Shown in pieces: positions 2,425 through 50,774 of a stretch of DNA of 64,000 nt. This DNA is from Klebsiella phage 05F01, in sequence record LC483177.1. One strand, written 5' to 3'. Positions within the stretch are counted from its first letter, which is position 1. Each line of letters starts with the position of its first letter. Made by a program: the position numbers and the translations under genes. The notes below the pieces were generated by a model. The model was not told the origin of the DNA. It made no database searches and saw only the letters and a list, made by a program, of their open reading frames with translations.

Positions 2425-2434
2425 ATTTCACCTC

Positions 2435-2791: not shown

Positions 2792-2808
2792 TATTTTCTC
2801 CTCAAATT

Positions 2809-2836
2809 AAAAAAGCCCACCCACCAGGGCAGGCTT
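2809..2836 (-). terminator. rho-independent terminator (9-bp GC-rich stem AGCCUGCCC/GGGUGGGCU plus U-run) downstream of capsid gene; also reads as a hairpin on plus
   Basis: inverted repeat followed by T-run on minus-strand RNA. Confidence 0.55.
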
Positions 2837-2853
2837 TTATTAGAAACTATCTA

Positions 2854-3885: not shown

Positions 3886-3906
3886 TAAATAGCTCCTTTA
3901 TAGTTA

Positions 3907-4299: not shown

Positions 4300-4317
4300 T
4301 TATTTACAACTCCTTTA

Positions 4318-5412: not shown

Positions 5413-5423
5413 AAGTTGCTCCG

Positions 5424-5900
5424 TTATTTTTCTTCAGTTCTTGCCATGCAACCAATGCTCACACCAAGTAATTTACCTGATTTTCTTGCTTGATATAATT
5501 CTGCATCATAAAACTGAACTTTAACTAAAGGTGTTCCTTCTACGACAAATTCTTCACCAATATAACAATCTGTTTCATTAACCCAAGCTTTCATAGGTTT
5601 GAACTTATCTGTATTTTGGAGATGACCAAGATTGCCTTTGATGTTATTTATATTGTCGTTGAAGTTGTCTACCATTTTTCTAATTTCGATTTCAGACATA
5701 CGTTCACCGTGCAAGTCATCCTTTTCTGGAGGACAATATAGCACTTCTATTACTTGCATTTTTTCTTCGTCGAATTGATTTTTCTTGACAACTTGAGGAG
5801 TTGGTGTAGGATCTTCAGAGTGGGGATCTATTTCACTTTTACCTTTGAAAGACGAGAATGTCTTAAAGAGGTCCCATAAGCTGTCCTTGTTTATTTCCAA
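5424..5900 (-). CDS. hypothetical head assembly protein (158 aa)
   Basis: track ORF between portal and scaffold. Confidence 0.4.
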   Translation of the reverse strand: MEINKDSLWDLFKTFSSFKGKSEIDPHSEDPTPTPQVVKKNQFDEEKMQVIEVLYCPPEKDDLHGERMSEIEIRKMVDNFNDNINNIKGNLGHLQNTDKFKPMKAWVNETDCYIGEEFVVEGTPLVKVQFYDAELYQARKSGKLLGVSIGCMARTEEK

Positions 5901-5978
5901 GGTTGCCTCCGTTTAAGAGTGAATACCCTATAGATGTTATTCTATAGGATATTTTAGTTTTTGTCAAGTAATTATTTG

Positions 5979-7556
5979 TTAATTAGCTAAATTTGAAACA
6001 GAAGTGTCTGTAGATGACACAGAAGTAGAAGTTCCGTTACCAGAAGTTCCTTGTGCCATTCCGTCACCAGACCTTGAAGTTGAGTTTGGTAAATAATTAT
6101 CACAGAACTCTTTAAATTTAACAGGGTCTGAAACTATATCTTCAGGAAGTCTATATTTCATATTTAGCATCTCAAAGAACTCATTGAGTATCTCTGGTGT
6201 TAGAGGAATTGCACCCGCTGCTACCACACGTTGGATAGCTGATGAGTTTGTATCAACATCAGGGTCACCAATATCTTGACTAGCAAATTTAGGTATGTCT
6301 GCATCATCAAGAGAGAATCCATTAATTCTTAAAAGTTGTGGTATGATTTGAGTATTAATCATCTCAATAATAATATTAACATCTCTCTCTATGTAATGAG
6401 AAAGTAATGTTTGTTTATTATCTGAAAGTGAGTAACTACCCCCTTCATTACCCATAATAAGAACACCAGCACCAAATCTATTAAATATATCCAGTTGTCT
6501 TTGCTTTATTAGGACATTAGTATCAAACTGCTTACCATTACCTTCAACACCTTGGAATGTCAATTCATATTGCTGCATACTCGTATTTTCATACAAGTCA
6601 GATGGCATCACCATATATTGCTGTTCACCTGCATGGAGGTTGGCAATATTTTGTTGTAATATTAAAAGAGATTGTGCTTCTTCTCCACCAGGGTCTAAAG
6701 CTGCCCTATTAAGAATAGTTGATGGAACTTTTAATACTGGCATACCACCTAAATCTTTAGAGACACCAACAACTTCATATTCCTGAATAAGACTTTTTTC
6801 TCTCCAGCTTCTATACACGGCTGCAAGAGGACTTTCACCTAATGGATTTCCTTCTGTAATGTTATTACCTACCAAGATCATTTTAGACATTGGGATGTTT
6901 TTAACACCAGATGATTGTGGTGAGAAAAATCTACTATTTAAAGATTTAACTATATTCTGATTAACAGATAATATTTCCCTTCCATCATCAGAAAAGACAA
7001 AAGGGTTAGTTATATCAAGTGTATCTTGTGGACGTGCTGCCAGCTTCTGTAATCTGTAGTATCCATAATAAGGACTAGATGGATTAGTATCTTGCTGATA
7101 AACTTTTTCTGCTAAAGCAAAACCGAATTGCTTATATGAAAGTAGAGACCTGATATACTGTCTCAGTGGTGCTTCCATATTTCTTAATGTGTAATCTACA
7201 AATTTTGCTGCTTTCTTTGATTTTGCAGATTTTGTGTTATAGTTGATTGTGAAATCAAAAAACGCTCTATCTACAAACGTGTATGTGGCATCTAATGCTG
7301 TTGCTACATCAGGGTCATAACCCATTTCTTTATATGTTCGGATACACTCTGGAAATCTTAGCTCATAATTTTGAAGAAAGTTAGTAAATAGCTGTATGGA
7401 GTTAAGACCTAATGTGCCTATCTCTTTAGAGATTACTAATCTGGCCTCTTGAGTGTCAACTGGAGCAGCGGGACTTGCCGCTTTACTAACATTCTTATTC
7501 CAGTATTCCGAGCGTTTAGTATACTTTCTTTTCAACGGCTCCTCCAGAATAAACAA
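5979..7556 (-). CDS. portal protein (525 aa)
   Basis: large ORF immediately downstream of terminase large subunit; size typical of portals. Confidence 0.65.
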   Translation of the reverse strand: MFILEEPLKRKYTKRSEYWNKNVSKAASPAAPVDTQEARLVISKEIGTLGLNSIQLFTNFLQNYELRFPECIRTYKEMGYDPDVATALDATYTFVDRAFFDFTINYNTKSAKSKKAAKFVDYTLRNMEAPLRQYIRSLLSYKQFGFALAEKVYQQDTNPSSPYYGYYRLQKLAARPQDTLDITNPFVFSDDGREILSVNQNIVKSLNSRFFSPQSSGVKNIPMSKMILVGNNITEGNPLGESPLAAVYRSWREKSLIQEYEVVGVSKDLGGMPVLKVPSTILNRAALDPGGEEAQSLLILQQNIANLHAGEQQYMVMPSDLYENTSMQQYELTFQGVEGNGKQFDTNVLIKQRQLDIFNRFGAGVLIMGNEGGSYSLSDNKQTLLSHYIERDVNIIIEMINTQIIPQLLRINGFSLDDADIPKFASQDIGDPDVDTNSSAIQRVVAAGAIPLTPEILNEFFEMLNMKYRLPEDIVSDPVKFKEFCDNYLPNSTSRSGDGMAQGTSGNGTSTSVSSTDTSVSNLAN

Positions 7557-7620
7557 AATGGGGGAATGTTAATCCCCCAATATGATTAATATTAACATGT
7601 ATATCTTTTTTTGTCAATAC

Positions 7621-9720
7621 CTACCGCTTATTGAACCTTGGGATTTTAGATAATGGCCTCTTATTTGTCAGTCCATAACTTGATGCCTTAGTTCTACTTG
7701 AAATAGCTGATGGTATTGCTACAGCAGTAAATATCTGCTCTTGTTGGATTGTATTAAAAGCAGATGCACAAGCATCTGGAATATCATCCTTAACAGTTGC
7801 TGTTGATCTCTCACCATTGAATACTTCAAGTTCACGATAGAAATGGTCTAATGTTTCTTGATTAGGGAATGAATCCTCTACTATATAAACAAAACCGTTT
7901 TGACATGCACTACTAAAAGGGGTGAACTTTTGTAGTTTTTTCTTATTGCCGGGCATTGCATCAGACTTCACAGCAAGTCCATTTGAAATAAGTTTTTTAG
8001 CAGACTCTTGATACTCTACAGCACCTGCTGCTGATGGATCTTTTGGTAACACTACCGTGATATTAATATTATGTTCTTCATTATCGTAAAGAGATTGTTT
8101 CAATATCATTGTATCCCTTTCTCCGGGTAGTCTTCTAAATCTTCCATAGATTTTAGACTTCTCATCTATAGAATCAAGAATATAGTCACCGAAAATATAG
8201 ATATTACCATTAGAATCTTTAGCCATTTTAATAGATACTGTATAGTCAGGGTATTTATATTTTTCAGTGGGGATAGATGCAGCTTTATCCCATGCCCTTA
8301 CATACTTCATGTTCTTTGGTATTTTATCATATGTGATTTTATTTAGCCATTCTCTTTGAAAATAGCTAGATGCTTGTTCACGTGCATACCAACAACCATC
8401 CAAAAGTCTTTCTCTGTTAACTTTTGTTTGTGCTTTAAGAGATGCAAGATACCCTGGATTGAGCCTAATAAGCGCCGGGTTATCAAATATTGTTCCACCT
8501 ATAAACATAAACGTCTTAGGTTTAATTTTAACCATCTCATCTGTGTTTGGATTATACTGTTCACAGAGATCAGGATATTTTTCTTCCAACTCTTCTGCTG
8601 AATCTGAGAAAACAGGTTCATTATTATTAATCAGAAAATATAATTGCTTTCCACACATCTCATCTGTTGGAAAACCTTTATCATCTAAATAAGGTATTAC
8701 CCACTGTAAAACCCAGCTATCAGCATCAGGGTTACATGTAGATAGGCAGAAGCTTTCTGTTTCTGATTCAGAACGTAAACGTCCTATTAGATAGAGAAAT
8801 TGGGTGATACTGAAATGTGTAAGTTCGTCAAATCCTACCATGGAGTACTGTGTACCTTGGTGGTTTGCCTCTGCTGTTGATTCAAGCTCAAGATGGTCAA
8901 ACTTTAATTTTCCACCAGTTGTAGCTTGAAACTCAATTTCCATCACAGTTTCTCTTACAATAGGTCTTAATGGAGCATATAATTTCTTGGCTTCTGTAAA
9001 TAATCCACCTGCACTTCTGTGTGCCTTAGTTGTTCTTCTAAAAAGAACTCCATCAAAAAGGGGGTCTTTGTGAGCAAATTTTAATGCTTTTAATAACAAT
9101 AATCTACTTTTACCACTATTACCTGTTACAAAGGTATGCCCACCTCTTCTTAAAATAAGATAAGATGAAGGAGTTTCAAAGCAATACTTATACCCATCTG
9201 TTGGAACTGTCTCAAATATTTTAAGGTATGTATTCTCTTTACCTAAGATATTGAATGGAATTCTCTTACCATAGTAAGTTTCTACATATCCTCTTAAAGG
9301 GTGTCCTGCCTGTTGAAGAGCGATAAGGTCACCTACAGCTATCTCAAAATGTTTTTTTGATTTTTTCTTTTTATAAAAGACAAATCTATGCTCCATACTA
9401 AGCTCTTGAAATATCCCTGAAGCATTCTCTATGCGATATAGATTATCTTTTGTCTCTATCTCATCAAAGTAAGGGGTAATCTTTTCTATTTTTTTATTAT
9501 CTGGATTATACTGATAGATATCCTCACCAGAATAATCTTTAATTTTTCTCCAACCAAATTCAGATAGATATTCAGTTTCAGCACTGACACAACCAGCAGC
9601 ACCTCCATAAATCATTACATCTGGCATACTATCCATTGCAATAGTTTGTTTTCCTGGCTGTGCTTCTATTTTAAATACTGTATTTTTTAAATCATTCTTT
9701 GCTTGCTTTCTAGGTGCCAC
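7621..9720 (-). CDS. terL: terminase large subunit, intein-containing (699 aa precursor; Walker A GAAG|intein|SGKS)
   Basis: P-loop GGAAG...SGKS reconstitutes GxxxxGKS once a 158-aa insert is removed; ATPase and nuclease-sized C-terminal regions; followed by portal gene. Confidence 0.85.
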   Translation of the reverse strand: MAPRKQAKNDLKNTVFKIEAQPGKQTIAMDSMPDVMIYGGAAGCVSAETEYLSEFGWRKIKDYSGEDIYQYNPDNKKIEKITPYFDEIETKDNLYRIENASGIFQELSMEHRFVFYKKKKSKKHFEIAVGDLIALQQAGHPLRGYVETYYGKRIPFNILGKENTYLKIFETVPTDGYKYCFETPSSYLILRRGGHTFVTGNSGKSRLLLLKALKFAHKDPLFDGVLFRRTTKAHRSAGGLFTEAKKLYAPLRPIVRETVMEIEFQATTGGKLKFDHLELESTAEANHQGTQYSMVGFDELTHFSITQFLYLIGRLRSESETESFCLSTCNPDADSWVLQWVIPYLDDKGFPTDEMCGKQLYFLINNNEPVFSDSAEELEEKYPDLCEQYNPNTDEMVKIKPKTFMFIGGTIFDNPALIRLNPGYLASLKAQTKVNRERLLDGCWYAREQASSYFQREWLNKITYDKIPKNMKYVRAWDKAASIPTEKYKYPDYTVSIKMAKDSNGNIYIFGDYILDSIDEKSKIYGRFRRLPGERDTMILKQSLYDNEEHNINITVVLPKDPSAAGAVEYQESAKKLISNGLAVKSDAMPGNKKKLQKFTPFSSACQNGFVYIVEDSFPNQETLDHFYRELEVFNGERSTATVKDDIPDACASAFNTIQQEQIFTAVAIPSAISSRTKASSYGLTNKRPLSKIPRFNKR
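9118..9591 (-). other. mini-intein (158 aa, no homing-endonuclease domain) inserted in terminase Walker A motif; starts Cys, ends Asn, +1 Ser
   Basis: translated: ...YGGAAG-CVSAETEYLS...GGHTFVTGN-SGKSRLLL...; extein junctions restore canonical P-loop. Confidence 0.7.
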
Positions 9721-16161: not shown

Positions 16162-17880
16162 TTAAAGTGAAGTCAAATACTTTTTAACTTCTTTTTCAAC
16201 ATTTTCTCGAATATCTTTCAAGGAAACATCTTTAACCAATACACCATCACGGAAAATAACTTCCAGTTGGTTATCTTTTGTATTGATGTCTTTAAATGAT
16301 AAACCATCTTGTAAGAAATAGCTACCATCTTCTTCATCTTTCAATACTGCAAGGAAGCCTTTTGCAGAACGTTTCTTAGCATCTGTTTTAGGTTCTTTAC
16401 TTACCAGGATTTCTTCGCCATCAATGATAGCACCTGTAGCCTTACATGCAAATCCAAATGTATCACGAGTATTGTAGTTATAAGAGAAACTACCGACACC
16501 GTATACGACATTGTTTGATGCAAACCCTTTACGTTTAAGACGGACACTAATCTCTTTGAATCGTTCTACAGAGATTGAATCACCATAAATCAATCCAATA
16601 TGAGAGTCAAGTTCTTTGTATCCTTTACTATTAACTTTTCCACCAAAAGTCTCCCATAAGCAAGAGATTGCTCCAATAGCTTCATGACGTGGGATTTCAT
16701 AATAAGGGTTAAGGCTACCATTAATCGTCTGTTCTCCAGTAATATCATAATAGGCATCCCTATCTTCTAAATAGATTACTTCTGTTAAGACATCAACACT
16801 AGAACATTGCAAGGTTTCCCAATCCTTAAAACTTTCAACATAATATCCAGCAACCACTTTAACCGGATCGCCACTATCAGGACGAATTACAAGTTTACCA
16901 TCTCGTTCCATAATCTTATCTTTAAGATTAGGTAGGATTTTAGTAACGACTGACCAAAAATCATAGCTGTCAGCTACATATGATGAATTACCTTTAGAGT
17001 AGATCTCAGTTGAATAAGTATCAATGAAATCTGTTTCCGCTAGGAAACGTAGCTGGTCAATGTCATTTTCAAGGTGTGGGAAATGCTCTTTTAGTTTATT
17101 AACAATAACACCAATATTAGTCGTCGCTACAGAGTGTTCAGATGCAGGAATACTACCACCAACAAACTCACCTTCCATATTGTAATAATCATTAGCATAC
17201 TGAATTGCAAGAACGCTATCGGTACCCATGAAACTTGCCAGATGACCAATACCAGTGTGATAACTGTCACGAATCCCAGACAAACCACGTGCAGAAAAGT
17301 CATGACATTGCCAAGGCATATGCAAAGTGTTATCACACGTGATATTAGCATATTTTTCAGCCATCAAACGATACTGGAATGCTGTAGTGGCGTTAGTGAT
17401 TACTTTCCAAGTTTCAGCAGACAGTGCTGTTTCAAAATAGTTAGTTAGCCATGCAAAATCAGGGTGAGTGTTATGAATAGTATAACATGGAACCTGAATA
17501 GGGCAAATTGTTCCTTCTGGCAGAGCACGGATTTCAATAGGAAGGTACCCCAAGTCATGAAGCTTACCAATATGAGTAACATCCATATCAACACCTAGGT
17601 AGCCTTTTACAAAGTTCTTGTATTCATTAACTACTTCTGCACGGTCACGATCAAAGAACCCTTCATTCCAAAGATCGATAATGAAGTTTTTAACAACACC
17701 CTGGATACCAACAAACAATACACCACGTGGAGCATCATCTGCATAGTGCTTGAAAAGCTTATCTGCTCGTGGGGTGAAGTTACTGAAAATCAACTCTGTC
17801 TTAGGGTGATACTGCTGAATATGTCCAATTTTATACCCATCAGTTGCAAAAAGTGGGTTAATGTTTTTAGTCTTAGTCAT
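16162..17880 (-). CDS. nadV: nicotinamide phosphoribosyltransferase family protein (NadV/Nampt-like, 572 aa); alternatively a Namat-type nicotinamide ADP-ribose transferase
   Basis: N-terminal NPLFATDGYKIGH resembling Nampt NILLATDSYKVTH; family-typical length and class-II PRTase-like features. Confidence 0.8.
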   Translation of the reverse strand: MTKTKNINPLFATDGYKIGHIQQYHPKTELIFSNFTPRADKLFKHYADDAPRGVLFVGIQGVVKNFIIDLWNEGFFDRDRAEVVNEYKNFVKGYLGVDMDVTHIGKLHDLGYLPIEIRALPEGTICPIQVPCYTIHNTHPDFAWLTNYFETALSAETWKVITNATTAFQYRLMAEKYANITCDNTLHMPWQCHDFSARGLSGIRDSYHTGIGHLASFMGTDSVLAIQYANDYYNMEGEFVGGSIPASEHSVATTNIGVIVNKLKEHFPHLENDIDQLRFLAETDFIDTYSTEIYSKGNSSYVADSYDFWSVVTKILPNLKDKIMERDGKLVIRPDSGDPVKVVAGYYVESFKDWETLQCSSVDVLTEVIYLEDRDAYYDITGEQTINGSLNPYYEIPRHEAIGAISCLWETFGGKVNSKGYKELDSHIGLIYGDSISVERFKEISVRLKRKGFASNNVVYGVGSFSYNYNTRDTFGFACKATGAIIDGEEILVSKEPKTDAKKRSAKGFLAVLKDEEDGSYFLQDGLSFKDINTKDNQLEVIFRDGVLVKDVSLKDIRENVEKEVKKYLTSL

Positions 17881-18380: not shown

Positions 18381-19259
18381 TTAACATAAAATTTGTTTTT
18401 GAACTTCTTTCTGATTTTCTACCAGAACACCTGTAGTGTTGTCAACATTATTTTCCCAAACATTGAAAGAATGAATTTTATCAATGTAAGTTGAAAGAAT
18501 ATCCACTCCTTTAGAGAAGATACCATGAGTGACATACAACTCAACCTTACCAGCATTTCGTTCTTTAAGAACTTTTGCTAGTTCAATGAACGTCCTTCCT
18601 CCATCACAGATATCATCCACGATCATAAGATTCATTCCATCAAAATCCAATACAGGGATATTAGTCTTAATGATTTCACCTGTCAAGGTGTCTCTTACTT
18701 TTTCTGCACAATGAACTTCTACACCAAGACGTTTACCAAGTTTGAAGATTTTCTTAAGAGCACCACCATCAGGACTAACCAGATGGAAAAATTCTTGCTT
18801 AATCTTCCATGCCAACATATGGAATGCAACATCATCTTGTTCAATGACAGTAAGATTGTTAATCACTGCACGTGACACATCACTGTGTGGGTCAACAACA
18901 ATCACTTCATCAAATTTAAGGCTATTTAAAATGTTTGCGAAAGCTTTAACACCAAATGCCTCTCCTGGCTCACAGAATCGATCCTGGCGGGCGTAAGGGA
19001 TATACATCATCCAAAGACACACCTTTACATCTAAACCTCTTACAACCTCATCCAGAGCGTTTTTGACCATAACCAGTTCCATGAGGTCTTGGGAGTTCTT
19101 AACTTCATGATAGACAGAAACGGTTGTGCCAACTCCTACAAGCTTATCTACATCATTCATATCAAGCTTAACATGAACTTCTCCTCCAGAGAAAACAATC
19201 TTCTCACATCTAATTTCTTCTGTTAAATATGTATACTTATTAAAAACTTCAATCTTCAT
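18381..19259 (-). CDS. prs: ribose-phosphate pyrophosphokinase family protein (Prs-like, 292 aa); alternatively an ADP-ribose pyrophosphokinase (Adps-type)
   Basis: motifs SGGEVHVKL, LMELV...IPYARQDR, PRPP-binding loop VDDICDGGRT align to E. coli Prs. Confidence 0.75.
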   Translation of the reverse strand: MKIEVFNKYTYLTEEIRCEKIVFSGGEVHVKLDMNDVDKLVGVGTTVSVYHEVKNSQDLMELVMVKNALDEVVRGLDVKVCLWMMYIPYARQDRFCEPGEAFGVKAFANILNSLKFDEVIVVDPHSDVSRAVINNLTVIEQDDVAFHMLAWKIKQEFFHLVSPDGGALKKIFKLGKRLGVEVHCAEKVRDTLTGEIIKTNIPVLDFDGMNLMIVDDICDGGRTFIELAKVLKERNAGKVELYVTHGIFSKGVDILSTYIDKIHSFNVWENNVDNTTGVLVENQKEVQKQILC

Positions 19260-38606: not shown

Positions 38607-38830
38607 TGGAAGCAATGATAAGTAGTCAGAAAAGTATCAGGTTAGGGGGTTTAGCTTATATGCTGCTGGAAACAGCAGCTAAAGAAAAATGCCCTTTTGC
38701 ATATAAAGAGAATATTAAATCATTCGAGTCACAACCTGATTCTTTCACTTTCTGTGGTGTGATCTATGTTAAAGAGGAAGAGAAGTCTTTATTCAATTCA
38801 GTAAAAAGTATTTGGGAGAGCTATTCTTGA
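38606..38830 (+). CDS. small hypothetical protein (74 aa)
   Basis: track ORF. Confidence 0.4.
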
Positions 38831-39810
38831 GATATCTTATTACAGGAGGATTAGGTTTCATAGGAAGTGCTGTAGTTAGAAAACTACTTGAAAGTAAGGA
38901 TAATGTAGTAGGAATTATTGATTCAGAAACCTATGCGGCAGATAGCAGAAATGTTCCACTATTCTTTGTAGATTATTTTAATGTTGACTTATCTAACAAA
39001 GATGATGTAAATTCTGTTGTTAAAGAATTTAATCCAGATTATGTAATGCACCTTGCTGCGGAGAGTCATGTAGATAATTCAATAAAGTCACCTTCATTGT
39101 TTATTGAATCTAATATCATAGGTACTTTTAATCTACTAGAGGCTGTCCGTTTCTACGCACCCAATTTAATTAAATTCCATCACATTTCTACCGATGAAGT
39201 GTATGGAGACCTTAGTGACAGAGAAGAACTGAATTCACTGTTTAAGGAGACAGATGCATATGATCCTAGCAGCCCTTACTCTGCTTCGAAAGCAGCAAGT
39301 GACCATCTGGTGAGGGCATGGCACCGAACTTACGGTTTACCTACGGTAATCACCAATTGTTCAAATAACTATGGACCATATCATCACCCGGAGAAGCTGA
39401 TTCCACGTGTAATCACAAATGCTCTTTTGGGTAAGGAAATTCCTATCTATGGTGCAGGTAGTCAAATTCGTGATTGGCTCTATGTAGAAGACCATGCAAA
39501 GGCACTGATTACTGCCGTAATGAATGCTGTTCCTGGTAGCACCTATAATATAGGTGGACATAACGAAAGGTCTAACTTACGTGTAGTAGAAATAATTCTT
39601 AATCTCCTTAAAGATAAGACAGGCAAAGACTACACTCACTTAATTAAATACGTTACAGATCGTCCTGGTCATGATTTAAGGTATGCTATTGATGCCACCA
39701 AGATTGGTGATGAATTAGGTTGGCATCCAGAAGAAACTTTTGAATCTGGTATTGATAAAACAGTAACATGGTATCTTGAAAATAGAGAATGGTGGGAGGG
39801 CAAGATTTGA
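38812..39810 (+). CDS. rmlB: dTDP-glucose 4,6-dehydratase (RmlB); true start probably TTG at 38827 ([14 protein letters not shown])
   Basis: Rossmann TGGxGFIGS; SDR extended family; YxxxK catalytic motif (YSASK). Confidence 0.85.
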
Positions 39811-40673
39811 AAGGTATTATTTTAGCTGGCGGGAGTGGTACCCGCCTATACCCAATAACAAAAGGTGTAAGTAAACAGCTACTACCAATTTATGATAAGC
39901 CAATGATTTACTACCCACTATCAGTTCTTATGTTAGCTGATATTAGAGAAATTCTAATTATTACAACTAGAGAAGATCAAGATAACTTCGTATCATTGCT
40001 AGGGGATGGCAGCAGCATAGGTATTAGTCTATCTTATGCTATTCAAGACCAACCTAAAGGTTTAGCTGAAGCTTTCATTATTGGTGAGGACTTTATTGAC
40101 GGAGATGATGTTGCACTTGTATTAGGTGACAACCTCTTTTTCGGTCAAGGTTTTAGTAGCAAGCTGAATAGAGCTAAAGACTTAGTTAGTCACTCTGGAG
40201 GTGCTGTTTTATTTGGTTATGAAGTAAAAGACCCTGAAAGATTTGGTGTAGTAGAGTTTAAAGGTAATGAGGTAATTAGCATTGAGGAAAAACCTGCCAA
40301 TCCTAAGTCTAATTGTGCAGTAACAGGACTATATTTTTATGACCACACTGTAGTGGAAAAAGCAAAAAGTATTTCTCCATCCATCCGGGGTGAACTTGAG
40401 ATCACTGACATCAATAATCTATACTTAATTGATGAAAATCTCTCAGTAGAGGTATTAGGGAGAGGTTTTGCATGGTTAGACACAGGCACCCATGAGAGTA
40501 TGTTAGATGCATCACAATTTGTTAGAACAATACAAAAGCAACAAGGTATGTATGTCGCATGTTTAGAGGAGATTGCGTATAAAAAGGGCTGGATAGGTAA
40601 GAAAACTCTTTTAGAGATATCTAAATCTATGTTAAAGAATGACTATGGACAATACATTATGGAGCTAATATGA
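39789..40673 (+). CDS. rmlA: glucose-1-phosphate thymidylyltransferase (RmlA)
   Basis: [16 protein letters not shown] signature; start overlaps rmlB stop. Confidence 0.85.
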
Positions 40674-41245
40674 TGATTCAAAATGCAGGTGCAGATGGAC
40701 TATATGTCATTACACCTGATGTTTTTAAAGACTCACGAGGATATTTTCTAGAGACAAGTAATAATATCACATATAAAGATATTCTCAATGGAGAGTCTTT
40801 TGTTCAGAGTAATGCATCCCTTTCTAAGAAAGGGGTGTTACGTGGGCTACATTATCAAACTAAAAATGTTCAAGGTAAGTTGGTTTCTGTTAGCAATGGT
40901 TCTGTTATAGATGTGGTGGTAGACTTAAGAAAAGAGTCAGATACTTATCTTAAGTACTTTACTCAGTTCCTTTCATCTGATAATAACTTACAATTTTATG
41001 TCCCACCAGGTTTTGCTCATGGATTTGTATCTCTTGAAGAAAATACAAGGTTTGAATATAAATGCACAGACTACTACGCACCAAAGAGTGAAAAAACATT
41101 GTTGTGGTCTGACTCTGATATAGGTATAGATTGGGATAGTATTCTATATGAATTCAACCTTGACTATTTCATCCTCTCAGATAAAGACCAAAGAGGACTA
41201 ACTCTTAAGGAGATTTTGATTGAAAATCCTAGTATTTGGGGCTAA
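40670..41245 (+). CDS. rmlC: dTDP-4-dehydrorhamnose 3,5-epimerase (RmlC)
   Basis: cupin RmlC blocks: [17 protein letters not shown]...GFAHGF. Confidence 0.8.
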
Positions 41246-42029
41246 TGGTCAACTTGGAAGTATCTTTTGTGAAAAATACAGAGATCTGTCTGTCCCTTTA
41301 ACATCAAAAGATGTTGACATAACTAACTACAATGATGTAAGATATGCACTATTAAACATTAAGCCTGATATTGTCATTAACTGTGCTGCATACACTGATG
41401 TAGCTAAAGCAGAAGTTGATTTAGACTTGGCTTACAATGTAAATGCTACTGGTGCTTATTCTATATCATCAATCTCTAAAGAGATTTCAGCAAAAGTTAT
41501 CCACATATCTACAGATTATGTATATAATCAAGATGGCCCTATCTATGTAGGTGATAAAACAAACCCAATAAATAATTATGGTAAGACAAAGTTAGATGGG
41601 GACAAATTAGTATCCTATGCAGATAAGAATAACTTAGTGATAAGAACCGGTTCATTATTTTCTGACAGAGGTAAAAATTTCATTCTAACTTTGATAAATG
41701 CATATAAAAATGGCAAGATGGATTTTGATATTGTTGATGATATGTTATCAAGACCTACATCTGCATTTGATCTAGCTGATGTAATCTATAAAAATAGGGA
41801 TTTATCTGGGACAGTTCATTTTTCAGGGGACACATTAATATCATGGTATGACTATGCTAAATTGATATTTAAATTTGACCCATTAGTTAAGATTAATGCC
41901 GTAAAATCTGCTGAATCAAAAGTAAAAAGACCAATGGTATCTGACCTCATTTCTACACCTATCTTTGATGTATCTGATTTTAAATATAATCTAGAAAAAA
42001 CACTAACACTACTTGGAGTATCTAAATGA
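41220..42029 (+). CDS. rmlD: dTDP-4-dehydrorhamnose reductase (RmlD), TTG start overlapping rmlC
   Basis: [15 protein letters not shown]-terminus; about 270 aa. Confidence 0.8.
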   Translation: MKILVFGANGQLGSIFCEKYRDLSVPLTSKDVDITNYNDVRYALLNIKPDIVINCAAYTDVAKAEVDLDLAYNVNATGAYSISSISKEISAKVIHISTDYVYNQDGPIYVGDKTNPINNYGKTKLDGDKLVSYADKNNLVIRTGSLFSDRGKNFILTLINAYKNGKMDFDIVDDMLSRPTSAFDLADVIYKNRDLSGTVHFSGDTLISWYDYAKLIFKFDPLVKINAVKSAESKVKRPMVSDLISTPIFDVSDFKYNLEKTLTLLGVSK

Positions 42030-42404: not shown

Positions 42405-42986
42405 TTGAGTATAACAGAAGACCAGTATAAAAAGGCTGCTAGTGACCTTGGGGTTTCAGTAGCCGCAATTAAAGCAGTTGCAGAGGTTGAATCTAATGGT
42501 AGTGGATTTATTGCCTCTACAGGACAACCAAAGATACTTTTTGAACGTCATATCATGTATAAGCAGCTTGTTAAAAACGGACTGCAAGCAGTAGCTGATG
42601 AAGCACTGAAAACACACCCTACAGTGGTTAATAAAACAGCAGGTGGGTATAAAGGAGGTGTTAATGAGTGGCTTCGCCTAGATGAAGCAGTTGACTTGGA
42701 CCGCAAATCTGCGCTAGAGTCCTGTTCATGGGGAGCATTTCAAATCATGGGATTCTACTGGAAAACCTTGGGATACTCTTCTATACAAGACCTTGTTAAT
42801 GCAGCTTATAGTGGTGATGCAGGTCAACTTGATATGTTTGTAAGATTTATCAAAGCAAACCCAGGGATTGTAAAGGCTATGAAGAATCTTGATTGGGCGA
42901 GCGTAGCCAAGCAGTATAACGGTGTTAACTATGCTAAAAACAAGTATGATGTTAAATTACGTGATGCTTATAAAAAATATAGTTGA
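42405..42986 (+). CDS. putative endolysin (N-acetylmuramidase-family peptidoglycan hydrolase)
   Basis: N-terminal AIKAVAEVESNGSGF...ILFERHIMY pattern typical of the phage muramidase family. Confidence 0.45.
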   Translation: MSITEDQYKKAASDLGVSVAAIKAVAEVESNGSGFIASTGQPKILFERHIMYKQLVKNGLQAVADEALKTHPTVVNKTAGGYKGGVNEWLRLDEAVDLDRKSALESCSWGAFQIMGFYWKTLGYSSIQDLVNAAYSGDAGQLDMFVRFIKANPGIVKAMKNLDWASVAKQYNGVNYAKNKYDVKLRDAYKKYS

Positions 42987-43011
42987 CAAACAGACTAGAA
43001 TTATGTAATAT
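42983..43011 (+). promoter_or_regulatory. sigma70-consensus promoter TTGACA-N17-TAATAT followed by 9-bp stem 5'-UTR hairpin (43014..43038)
   Basis: exact hexamers; AGACUCACC-GCUUAAU-GGUGAGUCU hairpin at predicted TSS. Confidence 0.6.
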
Positions 43012-43053: not shown

Positions 43054-43806
43054 ATGCCAAGCAGCAAAGTCCGTAGCAACAAACGTCGGGAAAAATTTAA
43101 TTCAGAAGAATCAATTCGTGAGAGCCGTTACTCACAAAAATTTGGGCTTGAAACATCAGATTATAAACTGAATGATTTCACTCCTACGGAAGAGCAGCAA
43201 GCTATAGTTCAGAGTATGGTTTGGAATGACTTGACAGTAATCAATGGCCCGGCAGGTGTAGGTAAAACTACAGCAGCACTGTGGAAAGCATTAAAAATGC
43301 TTCGTGAAGGGGATTTCCGTCGCTTAATCTTTATTAAGAATCCAAGCGAGGTCGGGGATGATGCTATTGGATTCCTTTCTGGAGATAAAAACGAAAAACT
43401 GACTGCACACTATGAATCTACTAAGCGTATTTTTCATACTTTCATGGCACCTAACAAACTTGAGAATGACATTAAGTCAATGAAGATTGAATTGACTATC
43501 CCTAACTATGCACTTGGGGCTACTTGGGATAATGCCATCATCCTTATTGATGAAGCACAGCTTATGTCACCTAATACTATTAAGCTACTTCTTGAACGAA
43601 CTGGTGCAAATAGTCGTGTAGTTCTGATGGGTGATGTTAAACAAGTATACTCTATCAAAAAACGTGACAATGGTTTATCTGATTTAATGAGCAAAATTTT
43701 GGATGAGAATGGTAACCCTATTGAAGACTTTGTTGGGTATATCAAGCTTTCTACTAAAGATAACCAGCGATCACGTCTGTCGCAATACATTACTGAGATT
43801 TACTAA
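43054..43806 (+). CDS. phoH: PhoH-like ATPase
   Basis: Walker A GPAGVGKT and PhoH-like length and organisation. Confidence 0.8.
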   Translation: MPSSKVRSNKRREKFNSEESIRESRYSQKFGLETSDYKLNDFTPTEEQQAIVQSMVWNDLTVINGPAGVGKTTAALWKALKMLREGDFRRLIFIKNPSEVGDDAIGFLSGDKNEKLTAHYESTKRIFHTFMAPNKLENDIKSMKIELTIPNYALGATWDNAIILIDEAQLMSPNTIKLLLERTGANSRVVLMGDVKQVYSIKKRDNGLSDLMSKILDENGNPIEDFVGYIKLSTKDNQRSRLSQYITEIY

Positions 43807-43847: not shown

Positions 43848-44348
43848 ATGGGGCAACAATTAGTAGAGATTGATTATGCTGGAATTGATAGTGCATATGC
43901 ATCAGGTGTAGTCAAACCTAACGAGTATCGTCAGATTGTTTCAAATATTGTAGAAAAAGAAGTCTTACTTAGAAAAGAATCTTTATCTACTATTCAAAAA
44001 TATAAGATGTTCTTTTCAGTTTTAGTCGGTAAAAACTTCTTTGAAGAATTCTATACCAAACAAACATCAGAAAATTCACTAACCGAAGCTATTATAACTA
44101 TCGCATCTAATGAACCAGAAAAGTTATTAATTGACGAAGAAGAATCGAAATACCTATTCCTTAGTGATGTATTTTATAAGAAAGCAGTTTTAGTTCGTGA
44201 TTGTAGTGATGTACATAAAAGCGAATATAATATTAATAAATCAAAGATGTTCGTGGATAAGCCAACTCTTCGTGCTATAGAATATTTAAATAAATATGCA
44301 GCATCGGGCAGAATGTTAATTAACCTTTTTGAAGGGGGGAAAGTATGA
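43848..44348 (+). CDS. hypothetical protein (166 aa)
   Basis: track ORF. Confidence 0.45.
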   Translation: MGQQLVEIDYAGIDSAYASGVVKPNEYRQIVSNIVEKEVLLRKESLSTIQKYKMFFSVLVGKNFFEEFYTKQTSENSLTEAIITIASNEPEKLLIDEEESKYLFLSDVFYKKAVLVRDCSDVHKSEYNINKSKMFVDKPTLRAIEYLNKYAASGRMLINLFEGGKV

Positions 44349-44896
44349 CAACAATTATCGCAACTCGCACAAAGATCCTTAGTGATGGTAAAGTCACTGT
44401 AGGTAGTCGTATTGACAGTGTTGATACAAAGAAGGTTCGTAATGTTTCTGGATATCTTATTGGTGGGGCAGGTCGTTATTCATCTATTCTAACATTCTTT
44501 GATTGGTATCAACAAAACCTCTTATGTCAAGATGCTCAGTCTATGATTCCTGGTTTATCTATTATGGATGACAGCAAAGAAGATGAGCAATTCACTGCTT
44601 TAGTAGTTCATCCAGACGGAGTTATCTATTTACATGAAGGAAGTAATCCTTCCCGTGCATATCCACTAGATGTAGATTACTATGCTATTGGTAGTGGTGC
44701 AGATTTTGCACTAGCTGCGCTTAAAGGTGGGGCAACACCTGAAGAAGCTATGGAAGTGGCTAAACAGATGGACGTATTCTCTGGTGGAGAAACTTTTGTA
44801 GAAGAACTACAAGAACAAGTACAATTAACTCGTGAATCTTTTGAAAGCAAGACTAAGAAAGAGATCCTTGATACACTCTTTCCAAAGGAAGAGTAA
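44345..44896 (+). CDS. HslV / proteasome beta-like Ntn-hydrolase peptidase
   Basis: Thr2 after Met (TTIIATR), KKVR, GxAG and AIGSGADFALAAL blocks align to E. coli HslV. Confidence 0.6.
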   Translation: MTTIIATRTKILSDGKVTVGSRIDSVDTKKVRNVSGYLIGGAGRYSSILTFFDWYQQNLLCQDAQSMIPGLSIMDDSKEDEQFTALVVHPDGVIYLHEGSNPSRAYPLDVDYYAIGSGADFALAALKGGATPEEAMEVAKQMDVFSGGETFVEELQEQVQLTRESFESKTKKEILDTLFPKEE

Positions 44897-44900
44897 TTAA

Positions 44901-44926
44901 AAGCCCTACGGGGCTTTATTTATATT
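44901..44926 (+). terminator. intrinsic terminator AAGCCC-UACG-GGGCUU plus U-rich tail
   Basis: hairpin plus T-rich run. Confidence 0.5.
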
Positions 44927-44941: not shown

Positions 44942-45238
44942 GTGGAAATAATTAATACTTATATTTGGTGGTGTGGTGTTGCTTTAAATATAGTAATGTG
45001 GATTGTATTTTCTATCCTATTATGGAGTATCTTAATCCACCCATCTATTCAGGCAATAAGCCTTGCTAGAGTGTATATAAAGGCGCTTGGTAAAGAGAGA
45101 ACTGTATCACGTATAAAGATTTATTGGTGGGCACAAAAGGAACTCTTCTTAGGAAAATCTTTTGAAACTATCAGAACAAATAGATTTGAATGGTCTGATA
45201 TTAACGATTGGGTAATTTATCAGGAATTAGAGGAGTAG
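44942..45238 (+). CDS. small membrane protein (2 TM)
   Basis: hydrophobic segments WWCGVALNIVMWIVFSILLWSILI. Confidence 0.4.
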   Translation: MEIINTYIWWCGVALNIVMWIVFSILLWSILIHPSIQAISLARVYIKALGKERTVSRIKIYWWAQKELFLGKSFETIRTNRFEWSDINDWVIYQELEE

Positions 45239-46444: not shown

Positions 46445-47116
46445 ATGAACAGAAATATTGCATACAAACGTGTATCAACAGACCAGCAAGATACTGAAAG
46501 ACAGTTCCACAACTCAGGTATGGTTTTTGATCTTGAATTTGAAGAGAAACTCTCTGGTAAAAATACAGACCGCCCTGAACTAAAGAAATGTCTATCAGTA
46601 CTTTGCAAAGGTGATACACTACATGTTTGGGAAGTTAGTCGTCTTTCTCGTAACCTGACTGATACTCGTGAGATTGTGTTCTCTCTCTTAGATAGAGGGG
46701 TAAGCATTAAATTTCATAAGGAGGGATTGGAGTTTGTTTCAGGTAGTGAAGATGGTATGAAGGATGCTATCAGCAAAATGATGCTTAACGTAATGGGCAG
46801 TTTTGCTGAATTTGAAAGGTCATTGATTTGTGGTAGAGTTAAAGAAGGTGTTGCAGTAGCTAAAAGTAAAGGAATATTAATGGGAGCAGCAAACCCTAAG
46901 TATAATAGAACTGATTATTCTAAAAAGAATGCAGCTAAAAAATCCTATGAATTTGCACTCACACTGAAAGAATCTTTAGTGTCTTATCGTCAAAAAGGGT
47001 TATCTTTTTTGACTATTGCTGAAAGGTTAAATGAAGCGGGAAAAACTACAAATAAAGGTAGTGAGTTTAAAGCAATGACTGTAAAAAGGTTATGTGAAAA
47101 ATTGGAGATCAAATGA
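46445..47116 (+). CDS. serine recombinase (resolvase/invertase family) with C-terminal HTH
   Basis: catalytic N-terminus IAYKRVSTDQQDTERQ; 223 aa. Confidence 0.75.
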   Translation: MNRNIAYKRVSTDQQDTERQFHNSGMVFDLEFEEKLSGKNTDRPELKKCLSVLCKGDTLHVWEVSRLSRNLTDTREIVFSLLDRGVSIKFHKEGLEFVSGSEDGMKDAISKMMLNVMGSFAEFERSLICGRVKEGVAVAKSKGILMGAANPKYNRTDYSKKNAAKKSYEFALTLKESLVSYRQKGLSFLTIAERLNEAGKTTNKGSEFKAMTVKRLCEKLEIK

Positions 47117-49982: not shown

Positions 49983-50774
49983 ATGCGTAGGGTTATTTTA
50001 ATTAGTGGGGCAGGATTAAGTGTAGAAAGTGGTATACGTGCATTCAGAACAGATACTGAAAGTGGCAAAGCATTGTGGGTTTCAAATGATTTTAATTCTG
50101 ATACTGGTGAAAGCAAAGAAGTTCAATATAAGGTAGAAGAGGTTTGTGATATTCATGCTTTCAGGGGTAATTTTTACCACAAAACTCACTCTTTCTATAA
50201 CAAAAGACGGGAAGAATTGTCAACAGTTCACCCTAATGCAGCACATCTACAGATTGGTGAATGGTTTAATAAATACCCAGGACAAGTAATTAATATTTCA
50301 ACTAACGTAGATGATCTTCTGGAAAGAAGCGGAATCCCACGTGATGAAGTAATTCATGTTCACGGCTTCCTGAAAGAGTTGAGGTATAAACTAAATGAAG
50401 GGGATGAGGAATCCATTGTTGATATTGGATATACACAAATTGAACCTGATGACTATCATTGGGCTAAACCTAATGTAGTATTCTTTGGTGAAGCTGCACC
50501 TTTATATGCTGATATGTATAATGTGTTTGATAGTCTAACTAGTCAAGATATGGTGATAGTTGTAGGTTGTTCTAACCAAGTGATTAATTTCAATTGGGAA
50601 CTCTTTCCTTCACTATCAAAAGGTGTAAAAATGTTAGTTGTCAATAATGGGATTAACTACCTTGAACAAGAGTTATATGAAAACAACGGAGTTCTTGTTT
50701 ATTATGCAGGTGCGGTTGAGACATTTACTAACAAAAATTTCATTAAACTGATCGAAAAACATTTGGAGGGTTAG
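49983..50774 (+). CDS. Sir2-family (sirtuin-like) NAD-binding protein lacking the zinc-ribbon cysteines
   Basis: ISGAGLSVESGIRAFR matches sirtuin GAGISxxSGIPxFR; later NxDxL and HG blocks; no CxxC pairs. Confidence 0.55.
   Translation: MRRVILISGAGLSVESGIRAFRTDTESGKALWVSNDFNSDTGESKEVQYKVEEVCDIHAFRGNFYHKTHSFYNKRREELSTVHPNAAHLQIGEWFNKYPGQVINISTNVDDLLERSGIPRDEVIHVHGFLKELRYKLNEGDEESIVDIGYTQIEPDDYHWAKPNVVFFGEAAPLYADMYNVFDSLTSQDMVIVVGCSNQVINFNWELFPSLSKGVKMLVVNNGINYLEQELYENNGVLVYYAGAVETFTNKNFIKLIEKHLEG

What the first reader, a model, noticed from the sequence alone, without database searches (positions are those of the whole stretch)
44345..44896. Phage-encoded HslV/proteasome-beta-like Ntn-hydrolase peptidase
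A 183-aa protein begins Met-Thr-Thr (Thr2 would become the N-terminal nucleophile after Met removal). It aligns block-by-block with E. coli HslV: TTIIATR vs TTIVSVR, KKVRNV vs KKVRRL, GGAGRY vs GFAGGT, AIGSGADFALAAL vs AIGSGGPYAQAAA. No HslU-like ATPase is nearby. This could be the missing prohead protease: the head module here has no obvious protease gene between portal and scaffold. Alternatively it could be a modulator of host proteolysis.
Basis: partly seen in the sequence, partly recalled or inferred. Interest (0 to 1): 0.6.

Follow-up and report, generated by a model that had tools for sequence, protein, structure and literature searches.

The report
Phage proteasome-like peptidase (PPH class)
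This Klebsiella-phage gene encodes a small proteasome/HslV-like threonine peptidase of a phage family that is already catalogued but has never been studied experimentally, and it is not the missing head-maturation protease because a conventional one sits in the head gene cluster.

Summary
ORF 44345-44896 (+) encodes a 183-aa protein starting Met-Thr-Thr that is homologous to HslV/proteasome beta (PHROG 1040 E 2.5e-49; PDB HslV E 1e-5; Foldseek prob 1.0). The catalytic residues are invariant or nearly so across relatives down to 28% identity. It is not a true HslV: it scores 33 bits against a cutoff of 137 on the curated HslV models, lacks helix H2, lacks Lys28, and has an acidic loop where HslV has a basic pore cluster. 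[quoted passage not shown] Hundreds of deposited phage genomes already annotate the orthologue as "peptidase HslV family" or "putative 20S proteasome". A Peptidase_S78_2 (XkdF-type) protease lies between portal and scaffold at 5424-5900 (-). The HslV-like gene sits about 37 kb away on the other strand, in a PhoH / 166-aa ORF / PPH unit closed by a positionally conserved terminator. My best reading is an active Thr peptidase that works without HslU on cytoplasmic substrates during infection. The substrates are unknown. It is a new member of a known, uncharacterised kind, of modest interest.

The parts
44345..44896 (+). PPH-class proteasome/HslV-like N-terminal-threonine peptidase gene (183 aa). 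The Ntn core is residues 2 to about 155. An acidic loop (68-82) replaces helix H2. A conserved two-helix C-terminal tail spans 163-178.
   Evidence: ORF. PHROG 1040 E 2.5e-49. PDB HslV hits. AF2 model pLDDT 91.5. Foldseek vs PDB and BFVD. Catalytic conservation.
43848..44348 (+). Upstream 166-aa ORF (phrog_14834, function unknown). Its stop overlaps the PPH start (ATGA), so the two are probably translationally coupled. A possible lineage-specific partner, unproven.
   Evidence: The same gene pair is found in phage alia. It is not a PPH paralogue by BLAST. The AF2 model is unreliable (pLDDT 45.5, helical). It is 100% identical to a Klebsiella phage 05F01 protein.
43054..43806 (+). PhoH-like P-loop ATPase, first gene of the putative three-gene unit. 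It is not an AAA+ unfoldase.
   Evidence: Pfam PhoH 138.7 bits. PHROG 170. PhoH lies within 3 genes of PPH in 5 of 43 lineage groups.
42983..43011 (+). Sigma70-like promoter match (TTGACA-17-TAATAT, 10/12) in the endolysin-PhoH gap. A consensus match only.
   Evidence: The number of promoter-like sites in the region is not above the shuffled expectation, so only its position is suggestive.
44900..44917 (+). Intrinsic-terminator-like hairpin (AAAGCCC-TACG-GGGCTTT) followed by a T-rich tract, 4 nt after the PPH stop codon. It closes the transcription unit.
   Evidence: -11.6 kcal/mol, z -2.0. A hairpin plus T-run is present at the same position, with different stem sequences, in 11 of 15 related loci, including Aeromonas phage 2L372D.
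5424..5900 (-). The actual candidate prohead protease: Peptidase_S78_2 (XkdF-type), between portal (5979-7556) and the putative scaffold (4318-5412). It is not part of the PPH unit; it is listed because it refutes the 'missing protease' premise.
   Evidence: Pfam PF14550 44.8 bits against GA 24. phrog_3017, phrog_34096 and phrog_15223 protease hits. The alia orthologue gp002 scores 44.1 bits.

Best explanation
[quoted passage not shown] This is a compact Ntn-hydrolase subunit with no propeptide.

Proposed mechanism, with the status of each step:
1. Host methionine aminopeptidase exposes Thr2 as the N-terminal nucleophile, as it does for E. coli HslV (inferred).
2. Thr2 works with Asp14, Lys30, the Gly40/Gly43 oxyanion loop, Ser117, and Asp143/Ser146/Gly147. 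These correspond to proteasome Thr1/Asp17/Lys33/Gly47/Ser129/Asp166/Ser169/Gly170 (conservation shown; activity inferred).
3. The gene is expressed from a non-structural PhoH / 166-aa ORF / PPH unit, and the enzyme acts in the infected cell's cytoplasm, not in the prohead (location shown; timing inferred).
4. It most likely works as a stand-alone, probably oligomeric, threonine peptidase that does not dock to host HslU. It has lost helix H2, Lys28 and the basic pore cluster of HslV. In their place it carries an acidic loop, as in the ATPase-independent bacterial homologue BPH (losses shown; consequence inferred).
5. The substrates are unknown. They may be host or phage proteins or peptides relevant to takeover or counter-defence.

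Shown overall: homology, fold, strict conservation of catalytic residues, loss of HslV-specific features, genomic placement, and the presence of a separate prohead protease. Inferred overall: activity, oligomeric state, HslU independence, timing and substrates.
For: Identity:
- PHROG 1040 E 2.5e-49.
- HslV hits in the PDB by sequence and by fold (TM about 0.65, prob 1.0; then 20S beta and BPH).
- AF2 model pLDDT 91.5, pTM 0.81.

Active site (30 family members down to 28% identity):
- M1, T2, D14, G43, G116, S117 and G118 are invariant.
- K30, G40, D143 and G147 are at least 90% conserved.
- Mapped on E. coli HslV: Thr1 30/30, Asp17 30/30, Lys33 28/30, Gly45 29/30, Gly48 30/30, Ser124-Gly125 30/30.
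- Nearly all homologues start M-T-T, with no propeptide.

PPH traits:
- H1 (45-67) is followed by a coil (68-82), so H2 is absent. PMC8665760 describes this for PPH/RPC.
- Distant relatives are 135-155 aa.
- The family is phage-borne.

Not an HslV and probably not HslU-dependent:
- NCBIfam HslV equivalogs score 32.8/137 and 29.9/157.75 bits.
- Lys28 is kept in 2/30. Arg89 is replaced by E/D in 23/30 and Lys90 by D/E in 24/30.
- BPH, which has an acidic pore loop and non-conserved HslU-interface residues, has no partner ATPase (PMC5777263).
- PPH also occurs in Actinobacteria, where HslV is not listed (Table 1 of PMC8665760), and proteasome-like folds occur in Gordonia phage.
- There is no AAA+ gene in the window.
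- The two AAA ATPases of relatives do not co-distribute with PPH.

Non-structural role:
- Synteny with the alia auxiliary-gene block.
- Opposite strand, about 37 kb from the head genes.
- Promoter-like site and a positionally conserved terminator.
- An S78_2 prohead protease is present.
Against: - No biochemical or genetic data exist for any PPH (literature searches), so activity, oligomeric state and substrates are all inferred.
- HslU independence rests on absent features and on analogy with BPH. The role of Lys28 as the anchor for the HslU tail carboxylate is from my memory of the HslUV structures, not from a tool result.
- All cultured hosts of the closest relatives (Escherichia, Klebsiella, Aeromonas, Vibrio) do possess HslU (general knowledge).
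- Even BPH showed no peptidase activity in standard assays, so an intact active site does not guarantee general protease activity.
- Promoter and terminator calls are consensus matches, and the promoter count is not above chance.
- Only a monomer could be modelled.
- Distant minimal PPHs often sit just upstream of terminase genes, so a late or morphogenetic role in some lineages cannot be excluded.
Confidence: 0.55

Rival explanations
1. HslU hijacker. The phage subunit assembles into HslV-like rings (alone or mixed with host HslV), docks onto the host HslU (ClpY) unfoldase, and so retargets or titrates the host's ATP-dependent HslUV proteolysis.
For: HslV is the closest solved relative by sequence and by fold. 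The phage carries the peptidase but no unfoldase (the same is noted for a Salmonella jumbo phage in PMC7823757). The hosts of the close relatives are gamma-proteobacteria that encode HslU (general knowledge).
Against: The protein fails the HslV equivalog models by more than 100 bits. H2 is absent. Lys28 is kept in only 2/30, and the basic pore cluster that responds to HslU binding is replaced by acidic residues (PMC5777263). PPH also occurs in Actinobacteria, where HslV is not listed.
Confidence: 0.15
2. Prohead (head-maturation) protease. It would be packaged into or act on proheads to cleave scaffold and capsid proteins.
For: In Sinorhizobium phage phiM5 the homologue lies between the terminase and portal genes, and no other protease is annotated. 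In 12 of 43 distant lineage groups a minimal PPH lies within 10 genes of TerL or portal. The ORFs after the portal in those loci show no protease domain.
Against: In this genome an S78_2/XkdF prohead protease sits in the canonical slot, and the same is true in alia. The PPH gene is about 37 kb away on the opposite strand, in a unit with PhoH and its own terminator. No lineage places PPH between portal and capsid genes; it is almost always upstream of TerL, a common site for accessory genes. The portals in those loci are P22-, SU10- or T7-like, and those groups classically assemble heads without a protease (general knowledge). The phiM5 record marks portal, scaffold and capsid as detected in the particle proteome, but not the peptidase. 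The 2026 phi92 virion paper mentions no such protein. No known prohead protease family has the Ntn fold (general knowledge).
Confidence: 0.04
3. A specialised non-degradative Ntn enzyme. It would be monomeric or dimeric, like the proteasome-family ligase connectase or other Ntn amidohydrolases, and would carry out one specific cleavage, ligation or small-molecule amide hydrolysis rather than compartmentalised proteolysis.
For: The proteasome-like family includes a monomeric, highly specific ligase, and Fuchs et al. warn that several new homologues may not form rings. Loss of H2 removes a helix from one face of the sandwich. BPH shows no activity on standard substrates. The conserved C-terminal two-helix tail could be a specific docking element.
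Against: The full proteasome-type catalytic constellation is conserved, including the Asp166/Ser169/Gly170-like D-x-x-S-G-G motif. The protein lacks the S3/S4 insertion that Fuchs et al. call the signature element of connectase. Its nearest neighbours in sequence space, HslV and BPH, are ring-forming proteases.
Confidence: 0.12

Closest known systems
[quoted passage not shown]
   Same: Carried by tailed phages. No propeptide. Proteasome catalytic triad plus oxyanion Gly. A compact core that lacks helix H2. Sequence links to HslV and BPH.
   Different: This protein and its Stephanstirmvirinae, Plateaulakevirus and Vibrio-phage relatives add a conserved tail of about 25 aa with two helices (L-T-R-E...K-E-x-L), and usually a further variable acidic or extra C-terminal region. 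In that respect they resemble the 'RPC' group (related to PPH, with a C-terminal extension), which was reported only from proteobacteria. The window protein is the shortest of its clade, at 183 aa. I could not cluster it directly against the published PPH or RPC representatives.
HslV (ClpQ), the peptidase of bacterial HslUV
   Same: Best solved match by sequence and by fold. Same Met-Thr-Thr start. Same Thr1/Asp17/Lys33/Gly45/Gly48/Ser124-Gly125 positions.
   Different: Fails the curated HslV models. A 4-residue shorter first hairpin. No H2. Lys28 absent. The basic pore residues Arg89/Lys90 are replaced by acidic ones. No cognate HslU gene.
BPH (bacterial proteasome homolog; Fuchs et al. 2018, PMC5777263)
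   Same: An HslV-derived group I homologue. No propeptide, no partner ATPase, HslU-interface residues not conserved, and an acidic pore-region loop. Among the top fold hits.
   Different: BPH keeps H2 and has a long acidic pore loop. It is chromosomal in bacteria and forms tetradecamers. TM to BPH (about 0.55) is lower than to HslV (about 0.65).
20S proteasome beta subunits
   Same: The same fold and catalytic residues. The phage family even has the proteasome-like D-x-x-S-G-G motif (D143...S146-G147-G148).
   Different: No propeptide, no alpha-type partner, no H2, no C-terminal H5. Pfam PF00227 is just under threshold for this sequence.

Membership tests
PPH class / PHROG 1040 (phage proteasome homologs) | Significant match to the family profile | tested here: met
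   phrog_1040 E 2.5e-49, 169 bits, full length. Homologues from Aeromonas, Vibrio, Caulobacter and Sinorhizobium phages fall in the same PHROG.
PPH class / PHROG 1040 (phage proteasome homologs) | Proteasome-like beta-sandwich core with Thr1/Asp17/Lys33 and oxyanion Gly47 | tested here: met
   AF2 model pLDDT 91.5. Foldseek prob 1.0 to HslV, 20S beta and BPH. Residues are invariant or at least 90% conserved.
PPH class / PHROG 1040 (phage proteasome homologs) | Second helix (H2) missing (stated for PPH/RPC in PMC8665760) | tested here: met
   DSSP on the model shows H1 at 45-67, then a coil at 68-82, then a strand at 83-88.
PPH class / PHROG 1040 (phage proteasome homologs) | No propeptide; Thr directly after the initiator Met | tested here: met
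   M1-T2 is invariant in 30/30. Nearly all of 53 viral-contig homologues contain MTT at or near the start.
PPH class / PHROG 1040 (phage proteasome homologs) | Compact size of about 140 residues | tested here: inconclusive
   The core is about 155 aa plus a 28-aa tail (183 aa). Close relatives are 195-380 aa, and distant relatives are 135-155 aa. The long forms could equally be filed under the related 'RPC' group.
PPH class / PHROG 1040 (phage proteasome homologs) | Clusters with the published PPH representative (WP_042125023.1) rather than the AAH, CPH or RPC representatives | not tested
   The representative sequences and the CLANS map are not available through these tools (one search lists only accession numbers).
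HslV (ClpQ) proper | Scores above the curated equivalog models NF003964 / TIGR03692 | tested here: not met
   32.8 bits against a cutoff of 137, and 29.9 bits against 157.75.
HslV (ClpQ) proper | N-terminal Thr nucleophile with Asp17, Lys33, Gly45 and Ser124 | tested here: met
HslV (ClpQ) proper | Basic pore cluster Arg86/Arg89/Lys90, and Lys28 (the HslU-tail anchor; its role is recalled from memory) | tested here: not met
   The window has K78/E81/Q82 and S25 at these positions. In the family, Arg89 is E/D in 23/30, Lys90 is D/E in 24/30, and Lys28 is kept in 2/30. The significance of the basic cluster comes from PMC5777263.
HslV (ClpQ) proper | Cognate HslU AAA+ partner encoded alongside | tested here: not met
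   No AAA+ gene in the window. Relatives carry two distant AAA paralogues that do not co-distribute with PPH.
HslV (ClpQ) proper | Dodecameric double-ring assembly activated by HslU | not testable with these tools
   Only monomer prediction was available.
Pfam PF00227 Proteasome | Score at or above the gathering threshold | tested here: not met
   20.2 bits against 22.4. Many 60-68% identical relatives do carry a precomputed PF00227 hit, so this is a borderline miss rather than an exclusion from the superfamily.
Prohead (head-maturation) proteases | Encoded in the head module, typically between portal and scaffold/capsid, as the only protease there | tested here: not met
   The gene is about 37 kb from the head module on the opposite strand. 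The canonical slot is occupied by the S78_2 protease at 5424-5900.
Prohead (head-maturation) proteases | Homology to a known prohead protease family (S78/U35 HK97-type, S77 T4 gp21-type, S80, ClpP/S14, S49) | tested here: not met
   Only Proteasome/HslV-type hits were found.
Prohead (head-maturation) proteases | Present in proheads; required for capsid or scaffold processing | not testable with these tools
   This needs prohead proteomics or genetics. There is indirect negative evidence only: the protein is not flagged in the phiM5 particle proteome and is not mentioned in the phi92 virion study.

The most novel reading that the evidence does not exclude
The protein assembles, without any ATPase, into a proteasome-like particle with an acidic pore. 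The phage deploys it from an early or middle PhoH-linked operon to destroy specific host proteins, such as defence or stress-response factors, or to recycle host peptides. That would make it the first functionally defined viral proteasome. A variant of this reading: in small podophages, where the gene sits beside the terminase, the same enzyme has a morphogenetic role.
Probability: 0.2. Interest if true: 0.65.

Novelty: new member of a known kind. Interest (0 to 1): 0.3.

Why it matters
Proteasome-like peptidases are widespread in tailed phages. The tblastn search found 217 deposited genomes at E <= 1e-5. The profile search found 790 cluster representatives at E <= 1e-10. BFVD holds 48 viral fold clusters at E <= 0.001. 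Their catalytic residues are strictly conserved, yet I found no experimental study of any of them.

Knowing what a virus does with its own mini-proteasome would add a new class of phage effector. Possible roles are host takeover, counter-defence or peptide recycling.

For this particular window the value is mostly corrective:
- It places the gene in the right family (PPH, not HslV).
- It removes the prohead-protease idea.
- It shows that the real prohead protease is hidden behind a misleading "DNA methyltransferase" PHROG label.

Tried and rejected
1. Nucleotide identification of the window: megablast against the phage collection found nothing. The source was identified only later, through a 100% protein match to Klebsiella phage 05F01.
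2. The upstream coupled ORF as a divergent, alpha-like proteasome paralogue (an idea prompted by two adjacent phrog_1040 genes in Aeromonas phage 2L372D). BLAST shows no similarity, Pfam and NCBIfam give nothing, and the AF2 model is unreliable (pLDDT 45.5) and helical. Rejected as a paralogue; its function remains unknown.
3. The Aeromonas tandem paralogue gp210 as a catalytically dead subunit implying hetero-rings. It keeps Thr/Asp/Lys but has GCG in place of GSG. Uninformative.
4. A conserved neighbour across 43 lineage groups. No universal partner emerged. TerL (11 groups), PhoH (5) and portal (4) recur.
5. A canonical protease after the portal in distant loci. No Pfam hits, so this neither supports nor excludes a head role there.
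6. A phage-encoded unfoldase. The window has none. Alia gp071 and gp101 are weak PF00004 AAA proteins whose best PDB hits are p97/spastin, limited to the Walker region. Their distribution (many Firmicutes phages; not seen in the Vibrio or Caulobacter PPH carriers) argues against coupling.
7. Literature on experimental work, using the terms 'HslV' with 'phage-encoded', 'peptidase HslV family', 'HslV-like', 'proteasome homolog' with 'PPH', and 'Lys28'. Only annotations and the 2021 bioinformatic survey turned up.
8. The phi92 virion and rV5 proteome papers do not mention the protein or a head protease.
9. My first residue mapping, done with mafft --keeplength, was wrong. It was redone correctly.
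Full report
**1. The observation**

The ORF is at exactly 44345..44896 on the + strand and encodes 183 aa starting MTTIIATR. A purine-rich Shine-Dalgarno-like run (GAAGGGGGG) ends 5 nt before the ATG. The ATG overlaps the stop codon of the upstream 166-aa ORF as ATGA. Thermotoga HslV is the best solved match (E 1.1e-5). PHROG 1040 'peptidase HslV family' matches over the full length at E 2.5e-49. Pfam Proteasome (PF00227) scores 20.2 bits, just under its 22.4 cutoff. The similarity is therefore real and far beyond chance.

**2. Where the window comes from**

The window has no near-identical DNA in the INPHARED copy. The upstream ORF is 100% identical to a protein of Klebsiella phage 05F01, on a 147-kb contig. 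By protein similarity, the HslV-like gene's best deposited relatives are Justusliebigvirus and Phapecoctavirus (Stephanstirmvirinae: phi92, phAPEC8, alia) at 62-69% identity. Those records annotate the orthologue variously as 'peptidase HslV family', 'putative 20S proteasome', 'putative proteasome component', 'nucleophile aminohydrolase' or 'ATP-dependent protease subunit'.

Gene order is syntenic with phage alia: dTDP-rhamnose genes, glutaredoxin, endolysin, PhoH, a phrog_14834 ORF, the HslV-like gene, a small ORF, a DNA methyltransferase, an invertase, then a Ser/Thr phosphatase.

**3. Is it a functional Ntn peptidase?**

I built a close alignment (A1, 21 sequences) and a diverse one (A2, 30 sequences down to 28% identity).

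- In A2, M1, T2, D14, G43, G116, S117 and G118 are invariant.
- T3, K30, G40, A42, W54, I115, D143 and G147 are at least 90% conserved.

Mapped onto E. coli HslV:

| E. coli HslV position | In the phage family |
|---|---|
| Thr1 | 30/30 |
| Asp17 | 30/30 |
| Lys33 | 28/30 |
| Gly45 | 29/30 |
| Gly48 | 30/30 |
| Ser124-Gly125 | 30/30 |

The close family also has D143-x-x-S146-G147-G148, which mirrors the proteasome Asp166/Ser169/Gly170 motif. No member has a propeptide, and nearly all of 53 further viral-contig homologues carry MTT at the start.

AlphaFold2 on A2 gives a confident model (pLDDT 91.5, pTM 0.81) with the expected strand order. Foldseek against the PDB returns HslV (TM about 0.65), archaeal and eukaryotic 20S beta subunits, and BPH, all at probability 1.0.

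**4. What kind of proteasome homologue**

It is not an HslV orthologue. The curated NCBIfam equivalog models give 32.8 bits (cutoff 137) and 29.9 bits (cutoff 157.75). It differs from HslV in four ways:

- **Helix H2 is missing.** The model has one long helix H1 (45-67), followed by a 15-residue coil (68-82) where HslV and proteasome subunits have H2.
- **The coil is acidic.** Its sequence is PGLSIMDDSKEDEQF. HslV's pore residues Arg89 and Lys90 align with Glu/Asp in 23/30 and Asp/Glu in 24/30 family members.
- **Lys28 is not kept.** It is present in 2/30. I recall Lys28 as the anchor for the HslU C-terminal carboxylate; that role is from memory.
- **The first beta-hairpin is 4 residues shorter**.

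[quoted passage not shown] They describe it as about 140 residues, found in Caudovirales and prophages, lacking H2 (together with the related RPC group, which has a C-terminal extension), without a propeptide, and radiating from BPH and HslV. The window protein fits this description. Profile searches lead from it continuously to hundreds of 135-155-aa proteins (790 representatives at E <= 1e-10).

Its own clade adds a conserved two-helix tail (residues 163-178, motif L-T-R-E...K-E-x-L). That tail is also present in the Aeromonas phage orthologue at 37% identity. Most relatives then add a variable acidic or extra C-terminal region. The window protein stops right after the conserved tail and is the shortest of its clade. 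I could not cluster it directly against the published PPH and RPC representatives, so 'PPH class (long-tailed subgroup)' is my placement.

**5. The 'missing prohead protease' idea**

The head module lies at about 266-9720 on the minus strand:

| Coordinates (- strand) | Gene |
|---|---|
| 7621-9720 | TerL |
| 5979-7556 | portal |
| 5424-5900 | 158-aa ORF |
| 4318-5412 | 364-aa putative scaffold |
| 3907-4299 | head decoration |
| 2854-3885 | major capsid protein |

The 158-aa ORF is Peptidase_S78_2, the XkdF-type phage serine protease (44.8 bits against GA 24). It also hits three protease PHROGs. Its best PHROG (1530) is mislabelled 'DNA methyltransferase', and RefSeq carries that label for the alia orthologue gp002, which is likewise S78_2 (44.1 bits). 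That mislabel probably explains why no protease looked obvious. The premise is therefore false.

The HslV-like gene lies about 37 kb from the head genes, on the opposite strand, in the auxiliary and nucleotide-metabolism block.

**6. Transcription unit**

- A sigma70-like promoter match (TTGACA-17-TAATAT) sits in the endolysin-PhoH gap at 42983-43011.
- A hairpin plus T-run lies at 44900-44917, 4 nt after the stop codon.
- A hairpin plus T-run occurs at the same position, with different stem sequences, in 11 of 15 relatives examined, including Aeromonas phage 2L372D.

The gene therefore appears to close a PhoH / 166-aa ORF / PPH unit. The promoter call is weak, because the count of such sites is not above the shuffled expectation.

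**7. Partner search**

- **In the window.** It has no AAA+ unfoldase. PhoH is a PhoH/SF1-like P-loop protein. The other large ORFs are NAPRTase-family, DNA ligase, RNase H-like, ThyX, RdgC, PRPP-synthetase-like and Sir2.
- **In relatives.** Alia encodes two paralogous, divergent PF00004 AAA ATPases (gp071 and gp101) outside the region equivalent to this window. Their only PDB matches are weak Walker-region hits to p97/Cdc48 and spastin. These ATPases are common in large Firmicutes phages without PPH and did not appear in the listed hits from Vibrio or Caulobacter PPH carriers. I see no coupling.
- **The upstream 166-aa ORF.** It is restricted to the subfamily, has no detectable family beyond phrog_14834, and could not be modelled (pLDDT 45.5).
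- **Across viral contigs.** Among 43 lineage groups no universal neighbour exists. The most recurrent neighbours are TerL (11 groups), PhoH (5) and portal (4).

**8. Wider context for the head-role question**

In 12 of 43 distant lineage groups the minimal PPH lies within 10 genes of TerL or portal. It is almost always upstream of TerL and never between portal and capsid. In Sinorhizobium phage phiM5 it lies between TerL and portal. The portals in these loci are P22-, SU10- or T7-like, and those lineages classically mature without a protease (general knowledge). The region upstream of the terminase is also a common site for accessory genes. This is worth noting, but it does not rescue the hypothesis for this genome.

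**9. Mechanism**

My best reading is that Met removal exposes Thr2, and that the enzyme is an active proteasome-type threonine peptidase. It is expressed from a non-structural unit and works in the cytoplasm without HslU.

The closest functional analogy is BPH. BPH is an HslV descendant with no propeptide, non-conserved HslU-interface residues, an acidic pore loop and no partner ATPase (PMC5777263). PPH is also listed for Actinobacteria, where HslV is not.

Oligomeric state, activity and substrates are all inferred, and no experimental work on any PPH was found. The rival readings are HslU hijacking (0.15), a specialised connectase-like enzyme (0.12) and a prohead protease (0.04).

**10. Verdict**

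The sequence observation is correct and the family assignment is broadly right. The headline hypothesis is wrong for this genome, and the protein belongs to a class that is already catalogued and widely annotated. It is a new member of a known but functionally unexplored kind. Interest is modest (0.3). The residual interest lies in the open question of what phages do with a private proteasome-like peptidase.

Noticed in passing
window 5424-5900 (-); L086 1410-1889 (alia gp002): The XkdF-type Peptidase_S78_2 prohead protease is hidden behind a misleading label. Its top PHROG (1530) is described as 'DNA methyltransferase', and RefSeq annotates the alia orthologue that way.
   Followed up: yes
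window 43848-44348 (+): A 166-aa ORF (phrog_14834) is translationally coupled (ATGA) to the PPH gene. It is conserved only in Stephanstirmvirinae-like phages, has no domain hit, and gave an unreliable helical AF2 model. It is 100% identical to a Klebsiella phage 05F01 protein, which identifies the window's source.
   Followed up: partly
L002 3432-3983 and 4001-4885 (Aeromonas phage 2L372D gp210, gp211): There are two adjacent phrog_1040 paralogues. The upstream one keeps Thr1/Asp/Lys but has G-C-G in place of G-S-G and an altered oxyanion loop. It might be a hetero-oligomeric, two-subunit phage proteasome-like system.
   Followed up: partly
L003 2090-2611 (Sinorhizobium phage phiM5); L025-L084 (viral contigs): In small phages the minimal PPH often sits next to packaging genes. 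It lies between TerL and portal in phiM5, and within 10 genes upstream of TerL or portal in 12 of 43 lineage groups. The ORFs after the portal in those loci show no protease domain.
   Followed up: partly
L087 8476-9636 (-) and 23617-24744 (+) (alia gp071, gp101; outside the region equivalent to this window): There are two paralogous, divergent PF00004 AAA ATPases of unknown role. Their weak best PDB hits are p97/Cdc48/spastin. The family is also common in large Firmicutes phages. Their distribution does not track PPH.
   Followed up: partly
window 16162-17880 (-), 18381-19259 (-), 49983-50774 (+): A NAPRTase-family protein sits next to a PRPP-synthetase-like protein, which looks like an NAD+ salvage or reconstitution pair. 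A Sir2-family protein lies elsewhere in the window. They may be relevant to NAD+-depletion defences.
   Followed up: no
window about 38812-42029 (+): A dTDP-rhamnose biosynthesis cluster (the last gene, at 41220-42029, was confirmed as a nucleotide-sugar epimerase/reductase), followed by glutaredoxin. It is syntenic with phAPEC8 and alia.
   Followed up: no
window 46445-47116 (+): A serine recombinase / DNA invertase (phrog_125, E 2e-50) in a large virulent-type myovirus. It is conserved in alia (gp178). Its target is unknown.
   Followed up: no
window 44942-45238 (+): A 98-aa ORF (phrog_2531) right after the terminator has a strongly hydrophobic N-terminal stretch (WWCGVALNIVMWIVFSILLWSILI), so it is probably a membrane protein. 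It starts the next unit.
   Followed up: no
phage records MG065639, MG065645, MG065656, MG065689, MG065650: Unannotated records of about 146-150 kb named 'Campylobacter phage' carry PPH and AAA genes with the same identity to the queries as Justusliebigvirus and Phapecoctavirus coliphages. They look like coliphage genomes deposited under a Campylobacter host label.
   Followed up: no
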